A stretch of DNA of 64,000 nt from Ruditapes philippinarum (taxonomy: Eukaryota), in NCBI RefSeq assembly GCF_026571515.1, contig NW_026866069.1:62001-126000 (forward strand). Direction: 5' to 3'. Position numbers and translations under genes: made by a program. Shown here piece by piece: positions 3,401-45,259 of the stretch (its first letter is position 1; every line of letters begins with the position of its first letter). Under the pieces are notes generated by a model. It was not told where the DNA came from. It made no database searches and saw only the letters and a list, made by a program, of their open reading frames with translations.

Positions 3401-6400
3401 GATTTTTTAAGTTTTTACTATACACATATGGTTAAAAACAATGACACCCCTGGGGCAGGGCCAGTTTTGACCCCAGGGCTTTTATTTGAACAAACTTTGT
3501 AGATATTTACTTAAAGATGTTTCATGCTTAATATCTAAACTCTAGCTATTTGGGTTTTTTCAAAGAAGATTTTTAAGTTTTTGCTATACACACATAAGGA
3601 AAATCAATGACCCCCGGGGCGGGGCCAGTTTTGACCCCAGGGCTTTTATTTGAACAGACTTGGTAGACACCCATTAGAACATGTTTCATGCTAAATATCT
3701 TAGCTCTAGCTCTTTGAGTTCTTTAAAAGAAGATTTTTTAAGTTTTTACTATATGCATATAGGGAAAATCAATGACCCCCTGGGGCGGGGCCAATTTTGA
3801 CCCCAGGGCTTTTATTTGAACAAACTTGGTAGACATTCACTAGAAGATGTTTCATGCCAAATATCTAAGCTCTAGCTCTTACAGTTCTTTAAAAGAAGAT
3901 TTTTTAAGTTTTTACTATATGCATATAGGGAAAATCAATGACCCCCGGGGCGGGGCCAATTTTGACCCCAGGGCTTGTATTTGAACAAACTTGGTAGACA
4001 CTCACTAGAAGATGTTTCATGCCAAATATCTTAGCTCTAGCTCTTTGGGTTCTTTAAAAGAAGATTTTTTAAGTTTTTACTATATGCATATAGGAAAATC
4101 TATGACCCCCTGGGGCAGGGCCAATTTTGACCCCAGGGCTTTTATTTGAACAAACTTGGTAGACACTCACTAGAAGATGTTTCATGCCAAATATCTTAGC
4201 TCTAGCTCTTTGGGTTCTTTAAAAGAAGATTTTTTTAAGTTTTTACTATATGCATATAGGGAAAATCAATGACCCCCTGGGGCGGGGCCAATTTTGACCC
4301 CAGGGCTTTTATTTGAAACAAACTTGGTAGACACTCATTAGAAGATGTTTCATGCCAAATATCTAAGCTCTAGCTCTTAGGGTTGTTTAAAAGAAGATAT
4401 TTAAAGATTTTTCTTTCGGTTGCCATGGCAACCAGAGTTCTGCATGGAAATAAATTCTTTGAACAATTTTTAAAGGTGACCACCAAAGGAACATTCCTGT
4501 GAAGTTTGGATGAAATTGGCTCAGTGGTTTATGAGGAGATGTCATTTAAAGCAAAAGTTTACGGACGTACGACGGACGGACGGACGACGGACGGACGCCG
4601 GACGAAAAGCGATCACAAAAGCTCACCCTGTCACTTTGTGACAGGTGAGCTAAAAACAGTTCAGATTTTAGTATTTATTCTATTATTGTACAAACTGGCA
4701 GGATATTCTTATACTTACATCATCTCTAAGAAGGTTGTCTAAAACTTCTTTTGTCTCCTCATCAGTTCTCTCCCTTTTTACTGACTTCTTTGGACTGGAA
4801 CTTGAAGAACCTCCCCTTCCACCCCCTGAATAGGCATAGTCTCCACCTGAAATTCAAAAATGAACTCAATGAAGCACATGGCCCATACCCTGATTATTTA
4901 TAAAGACTGGGAACCAGGGGCCCTCAAATGGGGGGATTTTTAGTCATATGAAAGAAAAAAATACTCATTATGTTCTACAGGATTTCCTTTTAAATAAGAG
5001 GAAAAAAATATTTGGGGTTGGGAAAGAGGGCCCTGCAGCACATGCCATGACAAAAGCGTTACTAGAGTAATGTTAACAAAACTAATAGTTTAACATAATT
5101 TGTGTTTTACATAATACATTACCCATTTAGATTTATATCTAAAAGTGGAGATTAACATAATTTGCATTTTATATAATGCCTTTCATAACCAGATTTTATA
5201 TCCTCTAAAGACAATGCTATTGTTATAATTATTTACCTCCAGTGGGCTTGTTTATTTTCTCTGTTGGTCCCTGCTCAAATAAAGAATGGGTCTGTATAAC
5301 ATTTGCTGACATCCTGCCTCGACCTCGACCCCTGCCTCTACCCCGGTCACCAGAATCACGACCCCTTCCGCTACCACCAGAGTTTGGACGTTTGCCATCA
5401 TTGGACTTTGGTGTTGATGCTGATGCAGAATCACTTGCAATACTAAAACAGAAAGAAAACATAGTGTACATCATTTATTGGTGATTGATTTTTGTTCCAA
5501 AAATAACATACAAAATATTTTGGTCTTACCACTGATGAACCTTAAAACAAAATTACAAAATTTTGTTAAAATAAAATAATATACACTTAAATAAATCTAT
5601 CTATTCATATAAAAAGCTGCTCATTCATTCAGAATATAAATAAAAAGAGAGAAATTCTATATTTTACAAATTAATCAATGTCTTTTAGTGTCCTAATAAG
5701 CAACAACAGTGTTATTTTTGCTTTATTGCTGGTATTCAGATTAAGTATGTATAAAAATACATGAGGCTTGGCAATAAACAAGTTTCTAACTACACAATAA
5801 ACAAGTTTCCAAATACACCTACCTTTCACTTGGTTTGTTCCTTCTGGCAGGGATATTGGGTACAAACACTTTTTTCTGCACACCTCCAAGAGTTAAATCC
5901 CTTGGTCCTTTAATGGATGGCAATCTGTATATATAAATTTAGTTAACATTATTCCTTTGAGTTAAAGCTGCAATATTGAAAGACAAATGCAACCAGTACT
6001 GGAATTTATGTTTTTCTTCAAAGCTTTCATACTGATCATTCAGAAAATTAAACAATGAAATGAGTTGTCATAATCAAATAAAAAAATCATTGCAAAATCC
6101 CACTGCATCAAAGAATGCACATTCCATATTTAATATTAAAAATGTTGAAGATGCTGTAATTTCTAAAAATAATCAAGCAGACTGTAGAGGCATACACTTA
6201 ATGTTAACTGAAAAATCAAAACATAATTCACCATATTTAGTTATTTACTATAGAATTGAAGTAAAATGTATTTAATCCAAACCTGCTACCAAAAGTAATT
6301 AGGCTTTCTCAGCAGTACATCTGTGCAGTTTGACAAGGCTCTATACTGTTGGCTGGATACCTATTTATTTTCACCTTATTTCCCCCAAAATTTATAATGG

Positions 6401-6679
6401 ACACAATTTATTTACAAGTCCATTTAATAAATTCAGCAAAAACTATTTTCTGTTTGGCCAAAGTTGTCCCACAACCAGGCAATTGATTTTTTTCCATATG
6501 ATACAAACAAGTAAAGAAATGCTTTTAAAGATAAAAAGACATGTAAGTAAACCTCAGATTTTGCCTGCCCTGAGTAGGTTTAATATTTCAAAATGTTACC
6601 TTGTCCCTTTTCCACTGGGTGTTCCTGTTCTTCCAATTAGCCCACGTGGAAGCTGTGGATTGTCTCCTCCAGAAGCCAT
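486..6679 (-). CDS. POLR3D: RNA polymerase III subunit RPC4 (multi-exon, 3'-partial; continues beyond position 1)
   Basis: Hand-spliced exons 6679-6600, 5924-5823, 5442-5237, 4846-4719, 2524-2263 and 598-486, all GT-AG with consistent phases. Translation contains the RPC4 hallmarks RLPSIKGPRDLTLGGVQKKVFVPNI, an RG-rich tract, IQTHSLFEQGP, MPVKLP and LLYFQLPDMLPG. An acceptor at 6687-6688 implies an upstream non-coding exon. Confidence 0.92.
624..858. mobile_element. Palindromic MITE, copy 1 (GAG...CTC termini, Sola-like)
   Basis: The whole element is an inverted repeat (gagccgcgtcatgacaaaaccaacataatgggtttgcgaccagcatg ... catgctggtcgcaaacccattatgttggttttgtcatgacgcggctc), flanked by direct repeat aactt. 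Near-identical copies at 20218 and 62614. Confidence 0.85.
990..1731. repeat. 58-bp minisatellite, about 12.5 near-identical copies, in a POLR3D intron
   Basis: Unit acttgaaaactgtacattttctcactta(t/g)ctatataatttctaaaacggagcagtcaa recurs at 991, 1049, 1107, 1165 ... 1687. Confidence 0.97.
3248..4655 (-). mobile_element. Helentron/HINE-like non-autonomous element, family A (about 165-bp internal tandem array)
   Basis: Reverse complement of the 55933 element: subTIR aggtgagc, hairpin ctgtcactttgtgacag, GACG microsatellite (4561-4605), about 7 monomers of about 165 bp, end acaagagggcc. Confidence 0.85.
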
Positions 6680-9351
6680 CAGTGCCCTAAAAAAAATCAA
6701 AAGAAATTATAATTGAAATTTACAAGCAAGTTGGATTGGGTCCATGTACTTGTATCGATATTTGAAAGTGTTTATCGATATTGTATCGAATGATGAATAT
6801 CAATGATACATCGATACTGCGATATTCAATGACAGCCCTATTTTAAGTCACACATGGCAACTTTCCAGCTTTACTGTCAGGGCGATCAGGACCTCAAGTG
6901 CCTCTTTTATTGTTGCTACAGGTCACACTGACTCAGTGACCATAACATTTTTTTATCTGAAAATGAATGTGGCAGGTGGAACTCATTAAGGTGTATCCAT
7001 ACATGTATTATAAAGTTTTAATGTAAAAGCTTTGCTGATATTGAAGTAAATAATCATGAATGAAACCTTTTTTGAAAAGGTTAAATAGAAGGTCATGACG
7101 CTCGAGTTCAATTGGAAATAAACATTAAATAAGATTTATCACAAAATACGCCAATCACTAATGCTCTGACAAGCATATATAACATTTCCATTAAAATCCC
7201 TCAATTTGATTATGCTTGCCGACAGTCAGACAACTGCTGTCTGTGTGGTGAAATGAAACAAAAGTGATGTGATAAGAATTTAATTAAAAAAGGATATTTA
7301 AAATTATTTTCAGATGTGACAGTAATTCTTTTTATTCAAAGATACTATTTTTTTTTTCAATTTCACTTAAGAGAAAAAAGCAGGATCCCTAAAGAAAGCC
7401 CAACATGGCAAAATTGAAAATGGTTCAGGCTTGATTGATGACTGTAGCCACCAGGTAATTAATTGCACGCTTACAACCTTCCACGCCCACTTAACATTTT
7501 ACATGAACTGGTAACATTTTCAATTTTGAAATAATTCTTAAGCTGAAAAGTTGTGACTGTTCTGTTATCGAAATACCCTTACGTTAAACATTGAGTTATA
7601 GTAAAAATGGCGCCACCCAACTAGAAATTATGCTGAAAATTTCACCAATATGCATAGAATTTTAAATTTCTTTTTATTGTTTATTTTTTTATTTGACTTT
7701 AAATATACATATGTAGTCTCATATAATTGCCGGGCAAGAAAAAGTCCAGGCTTTCCCATAATATGAAATTAGGCAAAGCCTATGAACGGGCAAGTCGTTA
7801 AAAATTACTTTAATTTTTTCCGTTTTAAAGGTGTCATTCGGTATTTCATGCACCACTTCCGTTTTCACTCGGAATACTCAACGTTTATTATTTATCCGAA
7901 AAGTTGAGATTTGTTCCATTATCGGAATACACCGTCCTTTATCATTGAGTTACGTTGTGAATGGCGGCGCCTAACTAGAACTGACACTGAAAATTTAATT
8001 GATAGGTATAGAATTCTATATATTTTTTATTTGTTTCTTATTTGATTTTCTTTTAAATATACACATGTAGTCTATAACAGGGCAAGCCAAAGCCCGGGAT
8101 TGCTTTGCCCTGACTTTGACTTTCCCATATTATGAAGAATTGAAATTAATTCATTTTTAAAAGAATAAATACAATGATTTAATTGTTCAATAATTCTGCA
8201 AGAAAATCTTGCAGAACGTGCTGTGGATTTTAAAACAATTCTGGCACGAAATAGCTTTGCCAAAACTTTTCAAAAGAAAAATATCACTAACTTGGACAAA
8301 GCAACACCTTATCTGTAGGAATATTTTGACTTTGATTTGCAATGTGTAGCCTGGTTATATACTTTTAACGAAGCGGCAATATATTGCCATAGGGTCATAT
8401 CCTATTCCTCTATAGAAGAATTTTAATTTGAATATTTTTAATTGAATAAAGACCGACAAGTTTTGAAAAAAAAACAAATTATGTCGCGAAATCATATGAC
8501 AAACATCGTTACGCAAAAAACAGGAATTTACCTTTAATTTCAGTGCCGTAACATATAATCACTTCCCTAAACTCATATGAATGTAAACTATATATAATAC
8601 ATAGTGTCACAACGAATCGTTATTTTAAAGAAAATCGTGTTTTTGTATTCTCTGAAATATTTCATCAGACTCTTTCAGACGCTGTTAAAAACCTTTTGTC
8701 AAAGAAAATATCTGATTGGGTAGTCGCTCGTTTTATTAACGAATCAAATTTTATTTTACATAAATAGTTAAATCATACTACAACAACAACATTGGAAAAT
8801 GCCGATAGACTGAATTTAACTTTTCTACATTGTAAATTCAACACTGGTGAGATACTAATAAATTGAAATTGCAAAGCTAATACTGTAGACCGTGCCAGAA
8901 ATTGTGATTAACTCATTTTTCAGATTCTGCACGAATGCAACATCAAGCAAAGTAGATCGATTATTTAGTTAGGATGGTCCCCTTATTATTTCCTGCAAAT
9001 TGTACACATAAAAAGAACTTGTATTTACTATTTTAATAAATTGTGTTGAACTGTCACATCTTTGCCTTTAAAATACACCTGTCATTCATAAAATAACTAA
9101 ATGATTTAAATTAGAATCATCTATGGTCATTCAGCCAAAAAAGCAGCACTTCCACTTTCACATTAATGGTGGAAACATTTGATTGGTCCCGTTCAGTGTG
9201 TAAAGAAACACATTTTCTGATTGCACCGGAATGGGCAAGGACGCAGTACCCGCGGGGAGTACTTATAATAACTTAAACTTGAAATTTTAACTTGTTAATT
9301 TTACAATTTAAATATAATAAAATGTTTTAAGCTGTAACTTAACCATTGATT

Positions 9352-9625: not shown

Positions 9626-10639
9626 TATACTCAACATAACTAATTCCGCGTCATCATTTATTTCACGGTAATGGCATATTTTCATGTCACCAGTTTTAAA
9701 ATTGGTCAGAATGTCATATTTTATTCATACACCTAAACAACAAAGTTTTTGTGCAAAATAGTTAACATATCTAGTTTTTTCGTAAAATAGAGCAACATTT
9801 CACAAATTTCTGCAAAAAGCAACAATAGTCCATTAAGTTTATTTTTTTATCAATGTGGTCATATTTTCTTCCCAGGTCCGATACTCGTGCCTGTGATCAT
9901 TAGCAGTAATGCAGGTTAAAAATCCCTCTGGGTCAATTTTAGATGTGCCACTAAATTCACCAATCAGAAAAAATTGGAGCCAATGGCTCTAAAGTTGGAG
10001 CCAATAATTCTGCAAGGGAGACATGCCTATCTTTGTTAAGATATGCTAGCAGTTATATATATCATTGTGATTACAAACACATATTTATAAAATTTTGATT
10101 TATTACAGTTGTTTATAATGTAAATAGACATATAAAAATGTGGATTTCAAATTCCATTTAAATAATTACACATGATGACAACATAAATTTAATAAAAAAA
10201 AGGTTGGAAGGTCCTGTTTTGCATTATAGCAGTTCTTATCTCTTATTCACTTTCACTGACTGGACTGCGCCAAGATCTTCCCAGCTTTCACTGCATTCTG
10301 GTGATCTACAGTATAAAATAAAGAAGAAAAAAACATTACAGTAACAGGTCAACAGTGGCTTTATATCAATCATTTGTGAAATTATTATTTTAATTGTCAC
10401 TTGATTTAAGTGTACTTGTAAGTTGTCATATATTTTTATCGGTAATGTAACGATTCGCCACACTAACGATTCGCCACATAACGATTCGACACGGAGTAAT
10501 AACGATTCGCCACAGTTAAATAACGATTCGCCACGTGTTCAAGTACAAAATTTTTCACACCTGTTTTCAAACTGTTGATGGAAAACATTTTGCTATTTTA
10601 TATTTCATTTGTTAATTACATAAATTAATTACACTAAAT

Positions 10640-11230
10640 ACAGCTTTTATTGCATAAAAAGACACGAAAACCAAATATTTTATTAACAAAATTACATAAC
10701 ACAATTCATAACTTCGTTATTTATATAAACTGGAAAAAATATACTAACACCTTTTATAGGATAAAAATACATGAAAATAGAAATATTTTATTAACAAAAC
10801 TACATAACACATTTTATAACTTCGTTATTTATATAATAACAACTTTTATAGAATAAAAATACATGAAAATAAATATATTTTATTACCAAAATTACATCAC
10901 ACATTGCCGATGAGAAAAACTTCGTTATTTATATATCTGGATAATTATACGAAAACAGCTTTTATTGAATAAAGACACTTAATCATATATATATATATTA
11001 TTAACAAAACTACATTACACATTGTAGATAATTTATATAACTAACATATTTTATTACAAAATTTACATTTTTAAAACTTAAACCTGAAAAAGAATAGTAT
11101 AAACAGCTATTGAATAGAAGCGCATAAAAACATATTTTATTACCAAAATTACGAAAAGCAATTCTATAGCCAGAAAAAAACATACAAGAAATAGCTTTTT
11201 TATTTTAACATATTAACATTACACATTGTT
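10640..11230. repeat. Degenerate AT-rich direct repeats (about 100-120 bp) inside the MULE, downstream of the transposase stop
   Basis: The motif tattttattaacaaaa(t/c)tacataacac...aacttcgttattta recurs at about 10676, 10783, 10875, 10995 and 11132. Confidence 0.6.
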
Positions 11231-11281
11231 AACAGAAAACAAGTAGTGTCCAGTTGTGAGGGAACTCTTATACACCGTTGT

Positions 11282-14164
11282 TTATGCGGGACCATACAGG
11301 GCTGCACAAGCATCAAGCAAAGCGCTGGTGGTAATTGTTCTTAATCTGTACTGTTCCCAAAGGGCCCACAGTCGTCCTTGAATCTTCTTCGTCTGCTTGG
11401 TTTGATATCGTTTAAGTTTCTTCTCTTTCACCAACTTCGTCTGAATTTTCACATCTGCTGCTTCCTTATATAGAAGGGATATCAAAACGTAGAATGGAAG
11501 GTTCCCTTTCCTGGCTCGTCTGTTCAGTTTGTTATGCCAGCCTTCACAGTCGTTATTGGTTCTCACAGATCGTCCAAACTGACACCACGATTCCACAGGC
11601 CAAATGACGTTGTTGATCCAGGTATTCTCGATGTAGTTGATGTAGGCGTCTGTTTCTGGGGTTGAACTCTTCGACTTCAGATACTGGAAAGCTGGTCTAA
11701 TGTCGTCTGCTGGCAGAAGTGGGAGGGAAAACGTCTTCCTTAAAAGTTGATAAACATCATTCTGTTCACTGTAAGCTGTCTGTAAATAAAAAAAATACAG
11801 ATAAATTATTATGATTCATGTATATATAAGATATATGAGAGACTGACTTTTATAGACATGGAACAATTAATTTAACTAATAAAATTTATTTATTTTACAA
11901 ACATAATTTTCTTATAAACGTGATTCATTCTATAAATTATTATAGCAAGTAGCGTAATATAGATACCTGTAGACCAAGTTCTTGTACTTTACGGAAGAGG
12001 GCCTGTCCGAAATGAAACGCACAGCCTTTAATGTGGGGATCCTCAAACACGTCTCTTAGCCCCTGCCACATTCCTGCTTCAAAATCAACAACGAATGTTT
12101 CAACGCATCGCCCAGGTGTTAGATTGCTGATCGCTCGGAAGACCTGAAAAAAATTAACCAGTAATAACTGTAGTTTATAGTTTGTATCAAACAGAATAAT
12201 GTAGGAAAAAATCAACAAAATAAAGATAGAGATGTTGTTTTTTTTTTTTGCAAGAAATACAGTTTGCTGAATGTCATCATTTTATTTACAACTCAAGTAA
12301 ACATTAATTATTAATATTTCATTACCTTTTTATAGTCACGCCGTTTTTTCCCAGACATTAGTACAAAACATAAAGGGACCTGCTTCATGTTTTCCCCGGA
12401 CTTGATGAAAGCGTGAACAGACAAAAGTTGAGTGAAGGGAGTCTTCACCACTTTGAATGTACCGTCGATGTACCATGACTTCGCTCTGGAGAGAAGGCTG
12501 AGCTGTACGTCTGTAGACAGGATAATATGTTTTCGGTCCTTCACCGTCACTGTTTCCCGGTAGAAAGGTTCTTCTATTGTTCGACCAAGGTATTCCTCGT
12601 CAATCTGAAAAATATAAAATATTATAATTTAAATTATAACAATAATAATATTCGTATTCACGTTTATATATACATGTATATAAATGTATAAAAAAATATT
12701 TTAATTGTGATTGCTTTAATTTATATAAACTCTTTATATTTTTGTTTTTTTATACTTATGTATATGTTTTACATCAAGATTAAAATATGTATGATTTATA
12801 CCTCAAAATCAAGAGTTGTTGTTGTGCGCGACTGCACATCTGGTAAAGTGCCTGATCTGTGGTTCGAGAGGCTTCTGGTTGATTGGCGTCTTGTAGTGAA
12901 TCTGTTACGTTCTTCACAATTACTGGTGCTGTTTCGAAAATATCGGTGACGGCAACCTCCTTCAACTGGAAATATAAATTGATTTAATACATATATCATA
13001 TATATTTGTTATATATTGCATGTGAGAACAATGAAAACATATGATAATTATTTATTCATTTTCCATTTATTTCTTTAATATTTTGGTTTCAGTGTAATTA
13101 AAATTCATGTTAAACTAGCCTGGTTTTCTTACATATGCTATAAATATCTTCATTTTTTTCCTTGTGATGACAGCTTTAAATTTTGATTTAGAAAATGGTT
13201 GAGTATTGTAATCATTGAATATATTGATGATAACGTTACCTTCTTTTTCACTTGAACTGACACGCTCAGTCCAGGTTTAGACGGATGACTGTGACCAACA
13301 CTTGATGGGTGAAACGAATCCCCTTTCTGTTTAACGATAGCGCTACACTTTAAGTCCTTTCTTCTAACACTACACCGCCACTCTACAACGCCTGAATTGA
13401 ATGTTCTATTGATAACAAACGAATACCCATCCGATGTCACCAATTTCGGTTTCCCTCGTTCAGTACCCTTCTCTATTACTTCGTAAATCACTTCTGATGC
13501 TGATGGTACCCCCACAACAGTGTCATCGGGAATATCAGTCTCTATATTGTCAGGTTCAATATCTCTAACGGTCCCTGGCACGTCAAATGTACTGGTGTTG
13601 TCGGCGCGAACGTAATCACTAATTTCTTCTATCATGGAGACACTAGAGTTACAGACTGGTTCTGGCACTTCCAGATCACAATAGATCATTGTCACATCTT
13701 CACAGTTGTCGACTTCCATCGGTTCTACCTCCATTGACTCGTCATCAAAACGGCAAATTGCGCATATAAAATGCAGATCAATATTACCCTCTACGGCTGC
13801 ATCGTAGTCTTGCTGAGAAATACCTGCAACAATAAAAAATAATGTTTTAACAAAGCACATTTTTTATTAGTTATATTAACAAAGCACATTTTTTTATTAG
13901 TTATATTATTTTATCTATTTAATATGTATGAAGCTTAGTAAATTTAAAAAAAATAGAACAAAAAAAAAAAACAGTAAACATTTTGACATTGTTCATTTTC
14001 GCAATATTAAACTTTTTTTAATATAGTATGTAATATTTCATCTTAAAATTAATCATACCTGTGTTTCCACATTTTATATGCCATCTTTGACACTTGTCAC
14101 ATGTTACAGCACGTGAGTTACTGTAGATACGTCTTAAACAGAATGAACAAGGAGGAGCAGGCAT
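11282..14164 (-). pseudogene. MULE transposase (PHD finger + FLYWCH + DDE), 6 exons, one frameshift
   Basis: Exons 14164-14059, 13823-13240, 12965-12802, 12604-12326, 12143-11967 and 11779-11282. PHD: CSFC..CDKCQRWHIKC..FICAIC. FLYWCH: LVTSDGYSF..WRC..C..HSHP. Catalytic motifs WYIDGTF, VVDFE, GCAFHF and RTNNDCEGWHNKLN. Exon 3 is 164 nt between two phase-0 junctions, so the frame is broken. Confidence 0.85.
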
Positions 14165-15544
14165 GATTTTGTTTTCGTTATTTTTCGTTTGTATACTATT
14201 TTGTGTATGATTTTAAGTTGTGCAAGATGGTGTTTTTAAACCCTCTAAAACGTCATATATCGCTCAAATTAATTTGTTAACAAACATAAGCTTAATTACC
14301 GCATTGTTTTGAAAACTGCTCACGTTGTCAGCTAAATAAAGGATTATTTCGGCGTCAATTAAATATTTCTACAACAATCCTAAGGTGATTGGCTTGCTTA
14401 GATTAAAGGTGTGACAAATGTTTTAGATGTGCGTTCTTTAATCAATTATCGTAAATCAATTTTCAAAACACATGTTTTGCAATACTTTTTTTTAAAAATA
14501 TTTGACTTATATATATAATTTATGAAATATGTATTTTTATAAATATATATAAATATATATTCTATTTTTTTTCAACATATAATTACTTTCTTGTAAATGT
14601 ACTCCTGTAATAATGTTACTTTGATAAATTGAAATTCCTCGATGGGGGCCTTAACTTCATATTACTTGTATTAAGAAACATTATTAAATTATTGTCATTG
14701 TCAAATTATTAAAACAAAAGGAAAAAGTTTGTTGATTACTAAAAAAATCATTTTTATAATCATACTGTGGCGAATCGTTATTTAACTGTGGCGAATCGTT
14801 ATTACTCTGTGGCGAATCGTTATGTGGCGAATCGTTAGTGTGGCGAATCGTTACTAATTCTTTTTATCTTATGTTGGAGCCAGTAAAATTCGCCAATTAA
14901 AGATTTTATGTGCCAGAATTAATATTTTGGTTCCATAAGCAAGCAACAGTGGGAACCCTGGTAATGGACCATTTACATATGTTTTTAACTTTGTATTGTT
15001 TGTTTAAAAGTCATTCCAGGTATTAAGTACTTAAAAACAAAGATGGTTGCCATTCATATGAGGTTATTTACGTACAAAATTATTGTTCGAATTTGGAAAA
15101 AGAATTACTCCAAAATATTTGTAAGAAAGAAATATGTTTGTATGTTACTTTAAAATCAGATGGTGAATGCAAGAAATCTTTGCTTAACTATTTCAACATT
15201 GCTTCAAATATAATATTTTGTTCAGAAACATTTTATTCAGATTTATATACAATTTTGTGTTAAATAATTGAGAAACATTCTTTTGTATAATTTTTTCAAG
15301 AGTGGACATTAAGATTGTTGAAACAAGATAATTTTATCATTTATGATTATTTATATAAAATATATAATTAGATATATAGCTTTATACAGTTAAAGCTATG
15401 TAATGAGAAAATATAAATCGACAAAATGTTGTATTATAATTAGGAATGACAAACACTGAGTTCATGGGAATGTTTATTGAAGAATATGGACTTAAGTAAA
15501 TAAGTATCAAATTATTTAGTACATGAAAGAAATTATAATACAAA

Positions 15545-16660
15545 ACAAGAGCGATCAGTGATCACATGTGTCGCCTCATGATGGCTAATTTCATGTTGGG
15601 ACAAGTTTTGTGACAGACTGACAGACAGACGGACAGTGCACAACTAGACTTGGTACTGATCATTCCTGTAAAATTTGGATAAAATTGCGCCTGTAGTTTA
15701 TGAGGAGTTAAGTCCGGACAAGGTTTTGTGTATCTGGCAACACACAGAAAAAAACCACCTTTCTATCAAAGGGCCATAACTCGGCCAAAAATCATTCAAC
15801 CGGAAAACCCATGCAATATGCACAAGGACTTGAGCTACAGATCAATTCTGTAAAGTTTCATTGAAATTGCATTAGTGGTATGATGAAGAGAAGTAGTCCG
15901 GACAAACTTTAAAAATAAAATTTTTTAAAGGGCCATAACTCTGACAAAAATCATTGAACCAGAAAATGCTGACAATATGCACAACTAGACTTGGTACTGA
16001 TCATTCCTGTAAAGTTTGGATGAAATTGCACCAGTAGTTTATGAGGAGTAGTCCGGACAAGCTTTTGTGTATCTGGCAACACACAGAAAAAAAACACCTT
16101 TCTATCAAAGGGCCATAACTCGGCCAAAAATCATTCAACCGGAAAACCCGTGCAATATGCACAAGGACTTGAGCTACAGATCAATTCTGTAAAGTTTCAT
16201 TGAAATTGCATTAGTGGTATAAGAGAAGTAGTCCGGACAAACTTTAAAAATAAAAATTATTAAAGGGCCATAACTCTGACAAAAATCATTGAACCGGAAA
16301 ATGCTGACAATATGCACAACTAGACTTGGTACTGATCATTCCTGTAAAGTTTGGATGAAATTGCACCAGTAGTTTATGAGGAGTAATCCGGACAAGTTTT
16401 GTGACGGACAGACAGACGGACGTTCTCACAGGACAGTAATTATGTGGCTACTCTATTGTTCTCTCTATTGTTCTTTTTAGCAACACAAAAGAAAATAGCC
16501 ACATAAAAGCATTAAGGAATGAATGACATCAAAGAGAAAGAACAGTTACCTACTGTCCCTCTAGCCACATAATTACTCTCCTGTGAGTGCGGACAGACAG
16601 ACAGACCACGGAGAAGTGATCCCTATATGTCACCACTACTCCGTAGAGGCGACACAAAAA
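15545..16660 (-). mobile_element. HINE-like element, family B (alternating about 159/180-bp monomers)
   Basis: End acaagagcgatcagtgatcacatgtgtcgcc, GACA/GACG microsatellites, aagggccataactc at about 15769, 15928, 16108 and 16263, other end ...gaggcgacacaaaaa. Confidence 0.8.
16423..16589. mobile_element. Small MITE (CACTA/CMC-like terminus) nested in the microsatellite of family B
   Basis: TIR ctcacaggacagtaattatgtggcta / tagccacataattactctcctgtgagtg, flanked by cg on both sides; interrupts the gacagacgga run. Confidence 0.65.
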
Positions 16661-16900: not shown

Positions 16901-18299
16901 TTTTTATGCCCCCGCCATGTAATGGCCGGGGCATATAGTGTTACCCTGTTCCGTCATTCCGTCATTCCGTCCTTCCGTCATTCTGTCATTCCGTCATCAT
17001 CAGTTTCCGTTCATTATCTTAAGAACAGTTGCACACATTCAACTCAAATTTGACATATGGATATGTCATGAGAAAATACAGGTCAAGTTCGAATTTGGTC
17101 ATGGTTCGATGATTTTTGGCAGAGTTATGCCCCTTTTACTTTGAAAATAATATGAAATTTTCAGTTTCCGTTCATTATCTCCCCAACGGTACAACACATT
17201 CAACTCAAACTTGACATATGGATATGTCATGAGAAAATACAGGTCAAGTTCGAATTTGGTCATGGTTTGATGATTTTTGGCAGAGTTATGCCCCTTTTAC
17301 TTTGAAAATGATATGAAATTTTCAGTTTCTGTTCATTATCTCCCCAACGGTACAACACATTCAACCCAAACTTGATATATATGGATATGTCATGAGAAAA
17401 TACAGGTCAAGCTCGAATTTGGTCATGGTTCGATGATTTTTGGCAGAGTTATGCCCCTTTTACTTTGAAAATAATATGAAATTTTCAGTTTCTGTTCATT
17501 ATCTCCCCAAAGCTACAACACATTCAACTCAAACTTGACATATGATTGTGTCAAAGGAATGCGCAGGTCAAGTTCAAATATGGTTGTGGTTCAATGATTT
17601 TTAGCAGAGTTACGCCCATTTCACTTTGAAAGTAATATGAAATTTTCAGTTTCCGTTTATTATCTCCCCAATGGTACAACACATTCAACTCAAATTTGAC
17701 ATATGGATACGTTTTTGGAATGCCCAGGCCAAGTTTGAATTTGGTCATGGTTTAATGATTTTTGGCAGAGTAATGCCCCTTTCACTTTGAAAATAATATG
17801 AAATTTACAGTTTCTGTTCATTATCTACCCAACAGAGTTACATATTCAACTTAAATTTGACATATGGATATGTCAAAGGAATGGGCAGGTCAAGTTGGAA
17901 TTTGGTCATGGTTTGATGATTTTTTGGCAGAGTTATGTCCCTTTCACTTTGAAAATAATATAGATACATCTTAGGAATAAGCAGTTTAAGTTTGAATTTG
18001 GTCGTGGTTCAATGATTTTAGACAAACTTATCTTTCCTGAATGTTGGAAAAATTTTGAACTTTCAGTTTCAGCACTCATACTTTTAGCCATTATTTTGGC
18101 TACAAATATGCAATATGCTATTTTTAAAAGGTTAAGACTGATTAATTTCAGTGCCTTGAACATTGTATGAAAATGGTTTGTGTTAACATTGAAAAGTTTT
18201 AAGGGCTTTGAACTTAAAATGAAAAAAATAATTAATGCACCATCTGAAATTTTGGCTGCATGCGGGGGCATCCGTGGCATGATGACACATTTCTAGTTT
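16901..18299 (+). mobile_element. HINE-like element, family C (about 161-bp monomers)
   Basis: Start tttttatgcccccgccatgtaatggccggggcata, (ttccgtca)n microsatellite, about 6 monomers, end gggggcatccgtggcatgatgacacatttctagttt. Confidence 0.85.
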
Positions 18300-18788: not shown

Positions 18789-21700
18789 ATGTCAGCTACA
18801 GAGAATAGAGCAGGTTGCCATGGGGATCATGATGTAACCGGAGAAATACAAGAAGATAATGTAACTTCTAAGGAGGCAGTGGATAATTATGGTGCATGGT
18901 ATGAGATTATAGTTAATTTGTCTCTACTCTTTATTCTGGGGGAAATATCAGATATAGTCTTGAAATCAGAATATTGTAACAAATAAAGCAGAAAACTATT
19001 AACTAAGCTCTCATTTTGTGTTTTGCAAAATCAGTTTAAGATGTTATCATGCTTGTTGATGTAATATGGTTGTTTACCCCACTGAAGTTTAAACATAATT
19101 CAACTTACTTATTTAAATTATAACATTTTCGCATGGTATAGTATTACGGCCATATGGTATGTCCAACCTGTTTATTTATAGTCTGTATTATACAGTGAGT
19201 GTCAAAGTTGACTAAAATAAGAATTAATAATTAAAGGGTGTATCTCACTCACTTATTTACGGTCTCTTTCATTTTAGATTGGTAACTGAATACATTTGTA
19301 CTTTTTGAGCTGTGATTTGAATTTAATACAATCTCATTTGAGTAGCTTTTGAGATAGCTTTTGAAAAATTTAATTTTACATAGTTGCTTTTACTAACATG
19401 CAGGTATGAGATTATTGTCTTTTGTCCTATTCTATGTATTTTAAGCTGTGTGCCATCAAAGTTTTAAAGTGATATGCACCATAACAGTGATAACTATTTC
19501 ATCATTAAGATTAACATTGCCTATAATAATTGATACAAATTAAAGTTTAAATAAGATCTGCATATTGCTTAAACAAATCATGATCTTGGACAGGTTAATA
19601 CATGACTCTTTTATAAGCTTATTTACGATTTTTTTTTTCAGTGGAGATCATTATGATGAAATGTCTTCAACAACATTGTTTGATGTGCCATGGGATGATG
19701 TTTTATTTCAATACATTCTACCATTATTGCCAGTACAAACTTTGTTCCAATTACGACGCGTTTGTACCACTTCATTGCTCATGATCAAAGAATACTTCAG
19801 CCAGAGTAAAGAAATAAATATTGCCAGAATAGCTGGTAAAGTGACTGCAAAGGCTTTCCATATATTGACAGACGAAAATACAAATTTACTGCGTCTGAAT
19901 TTACGTAATTCAAAGGGATGGCTATCAGACGAGTTATTGATACCAGTTTTAAAATGCAATCCTAAACTACAATTGTTAGACTTGACTAATTGTACTAGTG
20001 TTTCGAACGCAGTACTCCAGTGTGCCGCAGTGCATTGTCCGGGTTTGAAGAAGTTAATGTTACGGGATTGTGTCTGGTTAAGTCCAGAAGGCGTGACTGT
20101 GATAGGTTTATACTGTAAAGATTTGGAAACAATTGACTTTAATGGATGTTGGAATGTCAATGACGAGTCTTTGTCTGTGCTAGTTTCAAGTTGTCCAAGG
20201 TAAGTAAAATAATAAATGAGCCGCGTCATGACAAAACCAACATAGTGCGTTTGCGACCAGCATGGATCCAGACCAGCCTGCGTATCCTTGCAGTCTGATC
20301 AGGATCCATGCTGTTCGCTATAAGTTTCTCTACTTGTAGTAGGGTTGGTAAGCGAACAGCATGGATCCTGATCAGACTGCACGGATGCGCAGGCTGGTCT
20401 GGATCCATGCTGGTCGCAAACCCATTATGTCGGTTTTGTCGTGACGCAGCTCAAATATCTTATGGTCAATGCTTATAAACATCCATTAAATACAAGTATA
20501 TTTATGACAAGTACATGACTTTGTAGTAGGTTGAACAAATCAATCGATGTAAATTTAACAACCATATCACAAAAAATTTTGCTTTATGTTATTTCTTATG
20601 GAAGGCCTGTATTTGTGTTGTAAGTATTAAAGTAAAATACATGTGTGTAAAAATCTAAAAGACTGAAGTGGATCGATTGATACAATATAAATGTCATATG
20701 TGAATACTTCTGTAAATGAAATTTCAAATTTAGCTGATTTTTCCTTAGATTGCTGTGTCTGAGTCACTTGAGTTGACTTTATAAAATTTTCATTCCTCTG
20801 TTTAGTTATTATAATTATCTTTAAATAAAGCTCATTATGACATTGTGCCAATTTGTGGACACTCAACAAAACATTGTGCCAATTTCCCGACACACTAAAT
20901 GAAAATCAAACTGTGCCACTTTGTGTACACTATATGACATTGACATCTGATACAAGATTTTTTTTCTGAAATCTTAAGGAATGATGATGAATTTTTCGTT
21001 TTTACCACACACATTCTTTCAGCCATAACTTAATTATTTTTGTTGTTATTTAGATTGAAATCCATTCAGCTTGCGAAGATATATGGACTAACAGACAACT
21101 CAATGACAGTACTAGCTAAATGTAGCAGTCAGTTATATCATTTAAACATTCAAGGATGCTGGAGAATCACAGATGACAGTATCAGGTATCTAACATTCTT
21201 ATATTTTATATCCTTTGTTACATACAGTTAGAATTTTCTAGAGCATTCTACACAGATACCTGCTTGTACTTGAAAAGTGCAAAAAGGTCATCTGAGGGTC
21301 TCCGTTAACTTGTTAGTTTAATGAGTAAGTTGCTAAAGTTAGATTTCTGCGTTGTTTGTAATGATGTAGGGATGTAGTTTAAAACCAATTGAAAACAGAA
21401 CCCGCTGGATCCTTTGTCAACACAGTATAGAGCCAGGCCAGTCAGCACATCCATTCAGTCTATACTGTTGACTAATTGATCTAAGTACATGTATCCCTAA
21501 AATAGATTATGGACAGTTCCGAAAATGTTTTACTTTAAGTGCTGAATTTATTCACTTCAAAATACAAGTCTTAACTTCATAATTATGTCTCCCCTACCTC
21601 GGGGGGAGACATATTGTTTTTGCCCTGTCCGTCCGTCAGTCCGTCCGTCCGTCAGTCCGTCCGTCCATTCTTCGTTTCCGGACGATAACTAGAGTTCCTT

Positions 21701-27391: not shown

Positions 27392-28024
27392 TCAACTAGT
27401 GTCAGTATCAACATAGTCTGGTAGATCATCAGAAGCATTAACAGTATCTTTATCATTTCCCACACAGTCATCATAGTCTGGTAGTTCTTCATTAATTTCA
27501 CTCTCATCAATTTTCTCTGTTTTTTCTTTCAAGTCTGACCTTTTAGATTTCCTAAGCTTTATGTTTGGAAAGAATCTAATTTCCCCTGTCCAATTTCGAA
27601 AATATTCCAAATTCTTTCCATTTAACAGGTCAGGCACCTCAATACCTATGGTATCAAACTCATGGTTTTCTCTTTCCTTCGATATTTTGATGGCAGCTTC
27701 ACGAGCCTGGTGCTGTTTTGTTTGCCTATTTCCAACAGAATTTACAATGCCTATCTGTTCCAGCTCATCATTAAATCTTTCTAGGTATGTGCAAGTCAAC
27801 TCTGCTACTTCATTCTTAGTATACATAGACTTCTGAGAATCCAAGTTTGTCTGGTACCACAGAAGCTTTTGCTGAAGATGTTCCTGCTTAATTGCCGATT
27901 CTGCTTTGTTTTTCATTAGCCTATGTTCGCGATTATTTTGCTTTTGAATGTACAGTGCATGTCGACTGTTGGGATGTACCACCTTCTTGGATTTTCCAAC
28001 AACTGCTTTAGGTGCCTTTGGCAT
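27392..28024 (-). CDS. TMA16: Translation machinery-associated protein 16 (single coding exon, 210 aa)
   Basis: MPKAPK...KVVHPNSR, YLERFNDELEQI, REAAIK..ERE..EF..GIEVPDL and FRNWTGE..FFPNIKLRK match the Tma16 family. Acceptor at 28049-28050 upstream of the ATG. Confidence 0.93.
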   Translation of the reverse strand: MPKAPKAVVGKSKKVVHPNSRHALYIQKQNNREHRLMKNKAESAIKQEHLQQKLLWYQTNLDSQKSMYTKNEVAELTCTYLERFNDELEQIGIVNSVGNRQTKQHQAREAAIKISKERENHEFDTIGIEVPDLLNGKNLEYFRNWTGEIRFFPNIKLRKSKRSDLKEKTEKIDESEINEELPDYDDCVGNDKDTVNASDDLPDYVDTDTS

Positions 28025-29399
28025 TTTTGTGTCCTTTTACAGCAACACCTAAAATATACATAAGAGAGGGGTTTTGATAATTTAAATTTTATCTTGAAAA
28101 AAATCTACATAATGATTATGCTTTTATAAGAAGGATTTTTCTGTAGTAGGCTATTCTTCACATAACAATACAAATGTATATTGAAATTCTGATATCCTCA
28201 AAACACACAGTTCACTTGATTTCCCAATTAAAATTAAGCAGGATTGGAGTATTTCCGTTAGTTATAAGTAAGTCAGTCCAACTGGACATGAAATTGGTTT
28301 GTCATATGAATCAACTATTACAGATGTACTCATGAATGAATTGGTAAGCACTTATAGGACCAAAGGTAGTAGGACAGGGTGTAACATGCAATAATTCTTT
28401 GTTATGTTCATTAGGTATTATTAAGTGGTAGGATTTAAGCATAAAGTGCAATAATTCTTTGTTGCTTTTGACCCAGCTTTTGTAACTATGTGTGTATGTC
28501 TACTAGTCATGGTGTTACATACCAGTCGCCCTCCCTCCCCTACCCTGGGGATTTGTGGGACTATAAAGTTTAGATTTTCCAATGAATTCCTTATATTAAA
28601 GCCATGCTTCAACATTGAATTCATGATGTAAAATTCTGGAAAAAGGAAAACAACACAAGAAAAAAGGTGAAAAAATGCAGTGTAGGTTGGATGGAGTCTG
28701 TTTGTGAGAGATGATGAAAGGTGCAACAACTCTCAACTAAAAGTTATAATTTGGAATCAATGATCTTGAAGGACCTCAATAAAAATATAATAATTCCTGC
28801 AACCCATGGTATAGACAGGTTATAATTAGTATCATTCAGGCGCGAACTGGCAATGGGTAAAACAGTCTGTTATTCGTCAGGACTAATTGACAACGGCACA
28901 ATATGATGTGACGTTAAAGTTGACCACAGGCCGAGCTGACTAAAGGACGACTCCAAATCCTATTTACAGTAGAACTTGTAGAACTACAAAACTTAACTGA
29001 ATCCGGGTCAGCTCGGCCCTAAAACGTACTCGGCCCCCGAGTCAGCTCGGCCCTATTCCAACTCGGCATGGGTCAACTTGGCCCACTTTTTAATTATTAA
29101 TATTAAGGTTTGTGTTATCACTATTTATTGTTATTATGAAATTATTTATAAAACACGGATTGACATTTTCAAAGGCTTTTCTTATCAGTAGAATTGCGAG
29201 TAAAGACTACCGATTGCGTATCTCAGTGTATTTCTGACTCGTGGCAGGTGGTAGGTTTAACCATAAACAGATAAATTTAAATACATTCAGTGTCAAACAA
29301 TGTGTTGAAATATACTGAGAGAAAGCTTAACTCTTTATCATACACAACACCAAAACAGGTTTCTGTATCGCATCGCTTTACTTGAAGTGTTGATTCATA

Positions 29400-29765: not shown

Positions 29766-32700
29766 ATGCTTTCCCAGTCATATGTACAAGATGCAAATGC
29801 ACATGTACTGTCAGAGGTGCACACTGACTGCCAGTTTCAAGTTTTACCAAACTCTGATAATGCAGGTAAGTTTCTTTTTAGTTAAATAGCATCTGCAAGA
29901 AAATAATGTAATAAATTACTTTATAATGATATTAAATTAATTTAAAACATCATCAAGTGACTAGATCTGTAAATTAATATTTATAACAGCATTTCTGTGC
30001 ATGAATTTGGTCAGGTCACAAATGCCAAGTTAAATCAACTTTGCGAACATTGACAGGGCCATTAAATTAGTGTATTAATTGTAGTTTCATGCAAAGTAAT
30101 TTCAGATAGTCTCCGGTAGCAAGCTAGCTTTTTTTACAACAGAATTGAATATAGCAAGCTTATATTTACTAGTAGCCACATGTATTGTCACTTAAGTGTA
30201 CTAACAGGTTAACTTCTATTTAGATTTAATAGGAGTTTACTGTTTTCCCGTTACTGCACTAATTAAGGTGAGAATACATTTACACCTGATTATTTTTAAG
30301 GATTTTCATCCATACATGTATCTCAGAAACTAAATTAACATATTATTATATCTTTCAGTGACAAGATTTAAGATAAATCTTCACAATTTAAAAGCCAAGT
30401 CAGAAGGGCATTACTGCAACAGGAAGGCTGTAAAATTAAAAACAAATGAAAATGTGAACACTGAATTAAACGATAAATGCACAGAATCTGACACTAGATT
30501 TGGACATGAAGAAGAAAAGGATGCATATCATAGAGAGTATAGAAGAACTGAGGATCAAAAAGAGAAGTTTGATGAAGATGGGGACTTGATATTAGATAGA
30601 CACCCCTGTCAAAGTTTAAAACTTGATGACGATAGAGATTTGATATTAGACAGACACTCATGTCAAAGTTTAAAACTAGATGAAGATGGGGACTTGATAT
30701 TAGAAAGACACTCTTGTCAAAGTTTAAAACTCAATGAAGACAGCCACAGGCCTTTGAGCAAGGAGATAGACACACAGGAAGATGAATATAAAGATGTAGA
30801 CTCCTTTGAAATTAAAGATAATAGTGAAGAGACTCCAGTTAGGAAGAAAATAAAGTTAGAAAAGGGAAGTAATACTGGTAATATGAGCTCAATTTTAAAT
30901 GCTGAGGATAACATCAAGGATGATTTAGATTGTGAAACAGAAAATACACCTCGTGACAAATTGATAGAAACAATTCAAAGTTCAATACAAGCATGTCAAC
31001 ATTGTAATGCAAATTATGAAAGTCAAAAGAGACCTTTTGAATTTGACACATCAGGAAAAAATGTAATTGTAAACTCAGAAAGACTTGTCAATGATAGAGT
31101 TAAGATGTGCAAGAACTGTGTCAAAGAGCAACATTCAGGTGAAGATGTGCAGAAAGAAGTCAAGACAGGAATTAGTGATAATGCAGAAAGTTTCAGAAAA
31201 GCTAGTGAGGTCTCGGACACAGTCAAAGACAATGATTATGATTCATCTATTTATTATATAAATATAAGTAGGTATAACTTAACAGTTAAAGGGACTCCAC
31301 TGAGATTTTTTGAAATGTTTGGTCTGAAAATATTTTTTTCCAGATAAATGTACCATTTGATGTAACTTTAGACCACAGACTAATCTTTGTGCAAAATTTC
31401 AGATAATACGCACACTTCGTTTTTTCAGAATAATTATTCAAATTGTAAAAAAATGACCCAAAATGAAAAGCTTTTAAATGCTTTTCACTCAAATCGTGCT
31501 AAAAAAAGCATAAACATACGATTTTCAATTTATTTCAAAGTATATTTCTTAACTGTCTTTGCATATATTTATACCCCCAAAAACGAAGTTTGGGTGGGTA
31601 TATAGGAGTCACCCGGTGGTCGGTCGGTCGGTCGGTCCAGACGTCCGTTGCATTTTCCTTGTCTCTAATGGTTGGAATTCAATATAACTTCATACAATGG
31701 TCAAGCACATTGAGAGGAAGTGCAGTGCACAAGAACCATAACTCCATCATGACTCATTAAAGAGTTATTCCCCTTTGTTACTTTTCCTTGTCCGTGGCAT
31801 AACTTGAAAACTACTGGTTGGAATTCAAAACAACTTCATACAATGGTCAAGCACAATAAGAGGAAGTGTAGCACATAAGAACCATAACTCTGTCTAAAGT
31901 AATTACAGAGTTATTACCCTTTGTTACTTTTCCATTGCTTTTTTCTTGTCCAGAGCATAACTTGAAAAGTACTATTTGGAATTCAATACAATTTCATACA
32001 ATGGTCAAGCATATTGAGAGGAAGCGCAGTGCACAGAAACTATAACTCTTTCTTGACTCATTTAAGAGTTTTTGCCCTTGGTTACTTTTAAATGTCCAGT
32101 GCATAACTTGAAAATTATTGTTTGGAATTCAATGAAACTTCATACAATGGTCAAGGGCAGTGAGATGAAGTGTTTTTGTTACTTTTTTGTCCAGTGCATA
32201 ACTTGAAAAACTAGTAGTTGGAATTCAATACAAACTTCATACATGGTCAAGCGAAATGAGAGGAAGTGCAGTGTACAATAACCATAACTCCATCTTCAGT
32301 ATTTGTAGAGTTATTACCCTTTGTTCCCTTTCCTTGTCCAGTGCATAACTTAAAACTAATGTTTAGAATTCAATGCAACTTCATTCAATGGTCAAGCGCA
32401 ATGAGAGGAAGTGCAGTGCTCAAGAAGCATAACTCTTTCTGGATTTATTACAAAGTAATTCAATAAAACTTCATCAATGGTCAACCATATTGTAAGGAAA
32501 TGCAACATACAAAAACCACAACAATATTTAATTGCCCACAACCATAACTCTTTTTCAATTCTTTAACAAGGTATTCTGTAACTTCCTCATTTCTGAAGCA
32601 GTCTTGTGGGGTATTAAATAGTTCTTGTTCTGAGCCCCAGCTCATTTATGTAAGAAATTCAAATGTTATGTATTTAGGCTTTTAAAGCTCAGTGGAGTCC

Positions 32701-43918: not shown

Positions 43919-45259
43919 ACATATGGCGATTAAATATTAATGAAACTAGATACATATTATATAGGCTATTTATATTTTTCTCTGACAAATACATGTACAT
44001 GTATTTATTAAATGTGATAAAAAGTAGGCAATCTTATTAAAATCATATCCTAACTGTTGCTCCACTACCCTTTGCTTGGTAGTAAAGAGTAATGGAGTGA
44101 AAACGATCTGATTTGAATGAGATTGAAAAGTTAAGGCTGCCAAATTAGTATTTTGTGGAAGTGTGTATCATACAAATTAGGGGAATGTTCATGTATTTTG
44201 AATTGATTTATACAGTCATTATCTACAAACATGATAAATAGCCTGATTTACCACTGAGAAGATTTATTGTCTGTGTATTTATATATTCTTTGCAGGTAGT
44301 TGAAATCTCAAGATTATTGACTGAAATGAGTCAATCTAAAATTTGAAATTCATCAATGTGAACTTTTTGCGTGCAGAAGTATTTGTGAAAATAATTATGA
44401 TTTCTTAAAGAAAATAATGTTTTTGTGATATCATTAATTAAGCAGGTACATGTTAAGAATTTGCTGTTATTGTAATCGTTTTATTCAGTTGTTTAATACC
44501 TTTATTATTTATATAATTGTTTGAAATGTACATCATTAGTTTGATAAAGGACCTTATCAGACATTTCTTTGTCATATTTTGAAACATATTTTGTTATATG
44601 AATAACCTGTTATGTTACACATATATTGTTTCATTAAAACATTTGTGATTTGTACAAATTTAAAAAACAAGCAATGAAAACAAAAATAATCTCAGTAGCA
44701 AGCTCAAACTTATTCAATTGAGATGCTGTATGAAAATGCGTTTTCAAATGATAGAAGGAAGTTTGCCTAAAAAGGAATAATTTTTGTGCGATCAAATCTT
44801 TGCAAATAATTTCAATTGGAAAAAATCACAAATATTTCCATGTCGCAAAATGAACCACTTATACAGTACAAAGCATTGATATTCAATAGATAGATAAAGT
44901 AAAGTTTTGACATTTTGTTTAAACAATAACCACCATGATATTTTCACACTAATATATAGATTACATCAGATTTTAGAAGAGTAAAAAAAAAGTTCTATAT
45001 ATCAAAGCAGAAAAAAAAATCAAATTTAGATATAAGAGAATGTTGAAAAGTCAGGTGAAAAGAAAATAATGTAAGTAATAATAAAATTTTCAATTAAATT
45101 AATATAAAAATGTAAAATTATTACATTTGTATAATAATATTATGTTACTTTAAAAATATATATAACTTTAGATAGTCAAAGTAAAATTGCTTCCTTCAGA
45201 TTTCAGGAACAGTCACAAGGGAAAGTTGGAATGGTTATTGACATAAGGCAATAATAATT

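What the first reader, a model, noticed from the sequence alone, without database searches (positions are those of the whole stretch)
10441..14860. Recently inserted full-length Mutator/Phantom-like transposon whose transposase carries an N-terminal PHD finger plus FLYWCH
Seen: perfect 8-bp TSD, near-identical TIRs, and six exons with canonical splice sites. Exon 1 (absent from the ORF track) and exon 2 together encode a C4HC3 PHD-type finger, followed by an acidic linker, FLYWCH and an intact D-D-(CxxH)-E core. Knowledge: FLYWCH+MULE with repeat-built TIRs describes Phantom-type Mutator elements, and PHD fingers often read histone H3 tails. Inference: a chromatin-reading transposase might target promoter-proximal chromatin, which fits its location about 1-2 kb from a putative divergent promoter.
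Basis: partly seen in the sequence, partly recalled or inferred. Interest (0 to 1): 0.7.

Follow-up and report, generated by a model that had tools for sequence, protein, structure and literature searches.

The report
Broken clam Mutator with Pygopus-type PHD
This is a real but broken copy of a cut-and-paste jumping gene, likely from a clam; its family (one intact copy elsewhere in the genome, many relatives in molluscs and amphioxus) likely makes an enzyme that starts with a zinc finger resembling the histone-reading finger of the Wnt protein Pygopus, but whether that finger steers where the element lands is untested.

Summary
The element is real: 10441-14860, exact 8-bp target duplication, 88-bp inverted repeats (98%), six GT-AG exons with PHD, FLYWCH and MULE D-D-CxxH-E parts. 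It is not intact. A net 22-bp loss in exon 3 shifts the frame and stops translation before the catalytic core, and a 3-bp loss in exon 1 shortens the PHD. A sister copy (G000:C4446) reads openly for 610 aa; 104 exact left ends exist, mostly short derivatives. The N-terminal PHD is a family trait, shared with oyster, mussel and amphioxus relatives, and is closest to the Pygopus PHD. It keeps the H3-tail docking residues and the key Trp but mostly lacks two of three methyl-lysine cage walls. No read showed the exon 1-2 splice; one contig splices exon 2 to a host exon instead. Forty insertion sites showed only a weak lean towards CpG-rich DNA, and this copy sits inside an older repeat. PHD-bearing Mutator relatives (Rehavkus) and PHD-bearing LINE proteins are in print; this exact layout was not found in my paper searches. 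The scan noted the same layout in two other genomes. Verdict: dead copy of a modestly novel variant; targeting unproven.

The parts
10433..10440 (+). left 8-bp target-site duplication TTTTTATC
   Evidence: single copy in paralogous empty repeats
10441..10534 (+). left (3') terminal inverted repeat: 6-bp end GGTAAT, then 88 bp holding five 15-bp units
   Evidence: end GGTAAT in 15 of 17 distinct two-ended copies, one-letter variants in 2
10631..11229 (.). AT-rich tandem repeats of about 92-118 bp between the stop codon and the 3' inverted repeat
   Evidence: families D4-D8
11282..11779 (-). exon 6: insertion domain, W, RTNNDCEGWH (catalytic Glu), stop; open but out of frame in this copy
   Evidence: spliced to exon 5 in a contig of run X1
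11967..12143 (-). exon 5: second Asp (VVDFE) and CAFH
12326..12604 (-). exon 4: first Asp (YIDGTF); in this copy the shifted frame stops at about 12576-12574
12802..12965 (-). exon 3, 164 bp; net 22-bp loss near 12822-12824 causes the frameshift
   Evidence: the X1 contig carries the longer form
13240..13823 (-). exon 2: C-terminal half of the PHD, acidic disordered linker, FLYWCH finger
   Evidence: Pfam FLYWCH E 1.3e-7; linker pLDDT under 50 in the model of the sister protein
14059..14164 (-). exon 1: start codon and N-terminal half of a Pygopus-like PHD; one His codon lost near 14080
14767..14860 (+). right (5') terminal inverted repeat, outer end GAATTA read inward
14861..14868 (+). right 8-bp target-site duplication
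9923..10440 (.). left part of an older dispersed repeat that the element interrupts (continues at 14861-14963)
   Evidence: 41 matches to the right flank; 10 of 11 paralogues examined also match the left flank

Best explanation
This is a frameshifted, non-autonomous copy of a recently active Mutator-like (MULE) DNA transposon whose family likely encodes a 610-aa PHD-linker-FLYWCH-DDE transposase, and whose Pygopus-type PHD is predicted to dock on the free N-terminal tail of histone H3 as a loose chromatin tether rather than a strict promoter-homing device. Shown: ends, 8-bp duplication, exons, the frameshift, an open sister copy, over 100 family ends. Inferred from Aedes Muta1: the transposase binds the 15-bp subterminal repeats, the D-D-E core cuts and pastes, and this copy, with near-perfect ends, could still be moved by an intact copy. 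Inferred from residue conservation: H3-tail binding (about 0.45). My odds that the finger measurably steers insertion to promoters are about 0.2.
For: Structure and break. Open copy C4446: 1833 nt, 0 internal stops, D340, D406, CAFH 427-430, E524. 104 exact left ends; 34 of 40 sampled have both ends with an 8-bp duplication (at most 1 mismatch), 0.8-5.2 kb long. Exons 2-6 are joined at the predicted GT-AG sites in one contig of run X1 (RNA is a guess). PHD at family level: 23 of 180 proteins; 9 of 23 scanned relatives hit PHD, FLYWCH and MULE together at E up to 0.01; named hosts Saccostrea, Mytilus, Sinanodonta, Branchiostoma; an Atlas cluster of 71, mostly molluscs, carries PHD_Pygo plus FLYWCH. 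Closest solved sequences are Pygopus PHDs, E about 1e-9, then MLL PHD3; the model's PHD superposes on Pygo at about 2.4 A. Of the Pygo contact residues named in PMC2726290, in 18 of 21 aligned proteins that could be parsed: V350 is V/I/L in 18, A356 is A in 13, I357 is L/V/I in 18, E360 is D/E in 11, W366 is W in 16, Y379 is Y/F in 18. Muta1 binding to subterminal repeats: PMC5499845 passages.
Against: No read or contig joined exon 1 to exon 2 in 4 runs; exon 1 had depth 0-2, and the one contig reaching the exon 2 acceptor joins it to a host exon. The other two cage walls are mostly missing: Y341 aromatic in 3 of 18, D352 acidic in 3 of 18, and both are absent in this element; loop 1 is often basic. 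None of the 23 relatives reaches Pfam's PHD cut-off (best 23.7 of 24 bits). 47 of 68 long relatives lack the full pattern, although about 10 of these show PHD fragments by eye. The frameshift was not checked against DNA reads, so an assembly error is not excluded.
Confidence: 0.7

Rival explanations
1. The PHD is a true H3K4me2/3 reader that aims the transposase at promoter-proximal chromatin.
For: Pygo likeness and conserved Trp. Within 250 bp of insertion sites CpG observed/expected is 0.67 against 0.52 in controls (74 against 80 flanks, p 0.029), and it is higher near than 2-4 kb away at 29 of 40 sites (p 0.0009). This copy lies at the edge of a CpG-rich stretch between two divergent genes. 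The X1 contig implies one more insertion downstream of a host first coding exon. A sea-urchin RAG2L PHD binds H3K4me2 (PMC7204232 passage).
Against: All 8 paired site-versus-control tests were non-significant (p 0.10-0.74). The 250-bp result is 1 of 7 bins, uncorrected, with two flanks per site. Controls show the same near-far sign at 26 of 40 and the difference from sites is not significant (p 0.17 paired, 0.10 unpaired). ETS-like motifs: 24 against 23. CpG content marks unmethylated DNA, not promoters. Two cage walls are mostly absent. Mutators favour genes and open chromatin anyway (PMC6446971 introduction; PMC2774946 title only).
Confidence: 0.2
2. The finger does not read histones; it binds transposon-end DNA or a partner protein, or helps the enzyme assemble, as the PHD-like domain of piggyBac binds DNA.
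For: Loop 1 has net positive charge in 14 of 21 proteins, +3 here. The same PHD_Pygo type sits on LINE-type endonuclease and Baculo_FP-domain proteins. A piggyBac cross-brace finger binds DNA (PMC5861402, search listing only).
Against: The positions kept are those that contact H3 A1-T3 and K4 in Pygo. The element already has a FLYWCH finger for DNA binding.
Confidence: 0.3
3. This copy is intact in the animal and the two deletions are assembly errors.
For: Another copy in this assembly (C1863) is full of 1-bp indels. No read carrying the short exon 3 was listed.
Against: The break is a 25-bp loss with a 3-bp CAA filler, unlike homopolymer error; the rest of this copy's exons have no 1-bp indels.
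Confidence: 0.08
4. Exon 1 is not normally used; the working transposase starts in exon 2 and the PHD is a vestige.
For: 0 of 4 runs show the splice; many database models lack the PHD.
Against: The finger's halves lie in exons 1 and 2 in the right phase; eight zinc ligands are invariant or nearly so over 21 proteins at 30-41% identity; several relatives are single long frames on 2-3.5 kb contigs; two truncated models (P0005, P0020) break off at the place of this intron (by eye).
Confidence: 0.08

Closest known systems
Phantom group of MULEs, including Aedes Muta1 and nematode Tm1 (PMC6446971 group 20; PMC5499845; PMC3169594)
   Same: FLYWCH finger before a MULE DDE core, 8-bp duplication (Phantom 8-10), inverted repeats built of short subterminal units, introns, repeats after the transposase frame
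   Different: an extra N-terminal PHD and acidic linker; the table lists no PHD for Phantom; ends differ in their outer 6 bp; tree position not tested
Rehavkus (Repbase; outgroup in PMC6446971)
   Same: PHD finger in the transposase; minisatellite before the 3' inverted repeat
   Different: Rehavkus has 9-bp duplications and arthropod/annelid hosts; this family has 8 bp and a FLYWCH finger, which the table does not list for Rehavkus
MULE transposases of Ciona and C. elegans with a PHD (PMC1702500)
   Same: MULE transposase carrying a PHD finger
   Different: there the PHD is C-terminal and the DNA-binding domain is of another WRKY-GCM1 family
Pygopus PHD finger (PDB 2vpe, 2vpg, 2xb1; Pfam PF27108 PHD_Pygo; PMC2726290)
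   Same: fold and positions V350, A356, I357, E360, W366, Y379
   Different: cage walls Y341 and D352 mostly absent; no known BCL9-like partner; binding untested
PHD-bearing proteins of non-LTR retrotransposons, and RAG2/RAG2L
   Same: mobile-element proteins with a PHD proposed (LINE ORF1, PMC5940361) or shown (RAG2, sea-urchin RAG2L, PMC7204232) to contact chromatin
   Different: other element classes; in RAG the PHD is on a separate subunit

Membership tests
Mutator/MULE superfamily | MULE DDE domain with (C/D)xxH and a Trp before the Glu | tested here: met
   Pfam MULE 34.1 bits (cut-off 27.6) on sister model P0001; D340, D406, CAFH, W499/W510, E524 in the open copy
Mutator/MULE superfamily | 8-11 bp target-site duplication | tested here: met
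   exact 8 bp in 15 of 17 distinct two-ended copies; 34 of 40 within 1 mismatch
Mutator/MULE superfamily | terminal inverted repeats | tested here: met
   88 bp, 98%
Autonomous MULE | open transposase frame in this copy | tested here: not met
   frameshift in exon 3, stop before the core; met by copy G000:C4446
Phantom (group 20) | N-terminal FLYWCH plus MULE domain | tested here: met
   definition from PMC3169594 passages
Phantom (group 20) | TSD 8-10 bp, TIR 18-613 bp, simple or repeat-built | tested here: met
Phantom (group 20) | DDE tree placement inside group 20 rather than MULE-Mollusca (19) or MULE-Cg (15) | not testable with these tools
   reference sequences were visible only as supplement passages; my tree held no named reference
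Rehavkus | PHD finger in the transposase | tested here: met
Rehavkus | 9-bp target-site duplication | tested here: not met
   8 bp; a 9-bp register gives 3-9 mismatches
Rehavkus | DDE tree placement outside the other MULEs | not testable with these tools
   no Rehavkus sequence was available to the tools
H3K4me-reading PHD (Pygopus type) | C4HC3 zinc ligands with C-x4-H spacing | tested here: inconclusive
   met in the family and in C4446; shortened to C-x3-H in this copy
H3K4me-reading PHD (Pygopus type) | dividing Trp and pocket base (W366, V350, A356) | tested here: met
   W28, I13, A19 here; 16, 18 and 13 of 18 relatives
H3K4me-reading PHD (Pygopus type) | cage walls Y341 and D352 | tested here: not met
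   Pro and Ser here; 3 of 18 each in the family
H3K4me-reading PHD (Pygopus type) | measured binding to H3 tail | not testable with these tools
   needs a peptide-binding assay

The most novel reading that the evidence does not exclude
A wide clade of animal Mutator transposases (bivalves, amphioxus, annelids) carries its own Pygopus-type H3K4 reader on the catalytic chain and uses it to insert into active, unmethylated chromatin near promoters: a one-polypeptide parallel of RAG2-guided RAG1, and possibly the pool from which the Pygopus finger itself came.
Probability: 0.2. Interest if true: 0.72.

Novelty: new variant of a known kind. Interest (0 to 1): 0.32.

Why it matters
This copy is a dead insertion and matters little alone. 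The family matters more: Mutators are known to favour genes and open chromatin, and how the enzyme picks such sites is not settled (own knowledge). A transposase with a Pygopus-like finger, an open copy in the same genome and over 100 mappable insertion sites makes the question testable with one peptide assay, one point mutant and one overlap with start sites. If true it would be a self-contained chromatin-guided DNA transposase, of use for understanding and tuning insertion profiles.

Tried and rejected
Complex prediction of the PHD (residues 1-64) with this genome's H3 tail (35 aa): score 0.23 against a mark of 0.34, verdict 'no answer'; not used as evidence. Run search: no RNA holder listed on record; not evidence. 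Transcript starts of the two neighbouring genes were not mapped, so the divergent promoter and whether the element lies in a 5' intron stay open. Word-indexed search with the PHD alone found only the query: insensitive. Foldseek gave no match at E up to 0.001; best rows were Hermes transposase and Pygo PHD. Tree of 68 cores (77 short rows left out; quick method only): the PHD label needs 15 changes, shuffled mean 18, so no single PHD clade, but labels are confounded by truncated models. A 9-bp duplication was rejected. Other exon 3/4 boundaries that would save the frame were rejected because sister copies and the X1 contig use the same donor and acceptor with 22 more bases. My first exon coordinates were off by 1-4 bases and were corrected. 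The Phantom paper (Marquez and Pritham 2010) is not held; Repbase and Dfam could not be searched, so a prior description there is possible. An empty allele of this exact locus was not seen; only paralogous empty repeats were.
Full report
Observation. The element spans 10441-14860 between two copies of TTTTTATC. Its inverted repeats match at 86 of 88 bases, are built of five 15-bp units, and differ in their outer 6 bases, an asymmetry shared by the family. Six minus-strand exons with GT-AG introns carry half a PHD, the other half plus an acidic linker and FLYWCH, a helical region, and the D, D, CAFH and E motifs. The element interrupts an older dispersed repeat: the right flank has 41 matches in the genome, and 10 of 11 paralogues examined also match the left flank, with a single copy of the target.

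The copy is broken. The exons total 1808 nt. Exon 3 is 22 bp shorter than in the four other copies that cover the spot, so the frame shifts and stops about ten codons into exon 4, before the first catalytic Asp. Exon 1 lacks one His codon found in five other copies, shortening C-x4-H to C-x3-H and lowering the exon's PHD score from 25.3 to 17.6 bits. Of 11 other loci aligned exon by exon, one (G000:C4446) has all six exons open: 610 aa, no internal stop. The DNA search scored only 40 of 391 candidates and the exon 2 protein search 76 of 76, with six close copies, so more open copies are unlikely but not excluded. There are 104 exact left ends; 34 of 40 sampled have both ends and an 8-bp duplication, most 0.8-2.8 kb long. 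This copy has 0.8% private substitutions: young, not brand new.

Host. The best protein match, 98% identical to exon 2, is named by NCBI as Ruditapes philippinarum LOC132730609; it shares the internal deletion of copy C14357. Whether RNA backs that model is unknown.

Is the PHD part of the enzyme? At family level, very likely. P0001 passes Pfam cut-offs for PHD, FLYWCH and MULE. 23 of 180 proteins have the full C4HC3 pattern near their start; 21 were aligned at 30-41% identity with the zinc ligands fixed. Named hosts are oyster, mussels and three amphioxus species; several unnamed ones are single frames on 1.6-3.5 kb contigs. In a quick tree of 68 long cores the PHD is scattered (21 with, 47 without, about 10 of the latter with fragments), which fits an old trait with losses or truncated models. 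Direct proof of the exon 1-2 splice is missing: 0 of 4 runs. One contig of run X1 joins exons 2-6 at the predicted sites with the long exon 3, and another joins exon 2 to 28 letters that map once in the genome, to a small exon ending in a GT donor at G000:C495, where this assembly has no element within about 20-30 kb either side. The join is in frame and drops half of the PHD; it suggests a polymorphic insertion caught by a host gene, on one contig's evidence.

What kind of PHD? The family profile finds Pygopus PHDs first (E about 1e-9), then MLL PHD3; the predicted finger (pLDDT about 80-95) superposes on Pygo; the Atlas names the precomputed family PF27108 as PHD_Pygo and shows it also on endonuclease (LINE-type) and Baculo_FP proteins. 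Mapping the contacts named in PMC2726290 onto 18 of 21 aligned proteins (3 did not parse): pocket base, T3 pocket and dividing Trp are kept; walls Y341 and D352 are kept in 3 of 18 each and are absent here. I infer a finger able to dock the H3 N-terminus with an incomplete methyl-lysine cage.

Targeting. The element lies 3.8 kb from the start codon of an RPC4/POLR3D gene on the minus strand and 4.8 kb from an F-box/LRR gene on the plus strand. Outward-facing donor motifs at 8528 and 8844 and a CpG peak at 8501-9000 suggest a divergent promoter about 1.6-1.9 kb away; no transcript data confirm it. For the family I compared the first 40 listed sites with contig position above about 41 kb (of 104) with 40 same-contig controls about 30 kb away. 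All 8 paired tests were non-significant. CpG content was higher within 250 bp (p 0.029, 1 of 7 bins, uncorrected) and fell with distance at 29 of 40 sites, but controls did so at 26 of 40 and the difference was not significant; ETS-like motifs were 24 against 23. This is at most a weak avoidance of CpG-depleted, probably methylated gene bodies.

Mechanism. By analogy with Aedes Muta1 (PMC5499845 passages) the transposase binds subterminal repeats and cuts and pastes with its DDE core, leaving 8-bp duplications; this dead copy and the short derivatives would be moved by an open copy. The PHD, on a disordered tether, most likely contacts H3 tails (inferred, 0.45); binding DNA or a partner is the main rival (0.3); strict promoter homing is less likely (0.2).

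Comparison with print. It works like a Phantom/Muta1 element and meets the structural criteria, but tree placement could not be tested. PHD fingers on MULE-related transposases are known: Rehavkus (PMC6446971) and C-terminal PHDs in Ciona and C. elegans (PMC1702500); PHDs on LINE proteins are known too (PMC5940361). I found no description of an N-terminal Pygopus-type PHD before FLYWCH-MULE in searches; Repbase, Dfam and the Phantom paper were out of reach. Papers seen: PMC6446971 (passages, introduction, supplement search), PMC13359780 (passages, supplement passages), PMC1702500, PMC2726290, PMC3169594, PMC5499845, PMC5940361, PMC7204232 (passages only), PMC2774946 and PMC5861402 (search listing only). 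The scan reported the same layout in two other genomes; I had reached the Pygopus match before that look-up.

Verdict. Real element, wrongly called intact; a dead copy of a widespread, little-described PHD-bearing MULE variant. Interest 0.32.

Noticed in passing
G000:C495:455141-455170 (L042) and window 13823: A contig of run X1 joins a small host exon (ATG-AGT-GAA-G, GT donor, in a CpG-rich stretch) in frame to transposase exon 2, giving a PHD-less transposase under a host start; the assembly has no element there, so this may be a polymorphic insertion trapped by a host gene.
   Followed up: partly
G000:C4446:382558-383353 (L031): The open copy carries an insertion of about 0.8 kb in intron 2 with its own inverted ends and a TTAA duplication (Kolobok- or piggyBac-like; names recalled).
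   Followed up: no
proteins P0037 (1885 aa) and P0057 (1409 aa): PHD-like finger followed by 9 and 6 FLYWCH fingers with no MULE hit: possible domesticated derivatives of this transposase head.
   Followed up: no
window 10441-10446 and 14855-14860: The two ends differ in their outer 6 bp (GGTAAT against GAATTA) and the asymmetry is kept across the family, so the ends may not be interchangeable.
   Followed up: partly
window 5825-6679 (-) and 19659-20200 (+): RPC4/POLR3D exon (PDB match E 4e-5) and an F-box/LRR gene (FBXL15-like, name recalled) face away from each other around the element.
   Followed up: partly
window 27392-28036 (-), 30334-33912 (+), 45242-47803 (+): Tma16 gene (Pfam E 7e-36), a divergent methyltransferase-like gene (by eye, no Pfam hit), and an 853-aa single-frame Hsp70/HSPA12-like gene with a repetitive N-terminus (weak MreB_Mbl hit; name recalled).
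   Followed up: no
window 15599-16422 and about 16950-17950: Two further repeat blocks right of the element: a duplication of about 340 bp and a tandem array of about 140-bp units.
   Followed up: no
G000: About 30 more distant FLYWCH-linker matches at 26-68% identity show several other families of this MULE type in the same genome.
   Followed up: no
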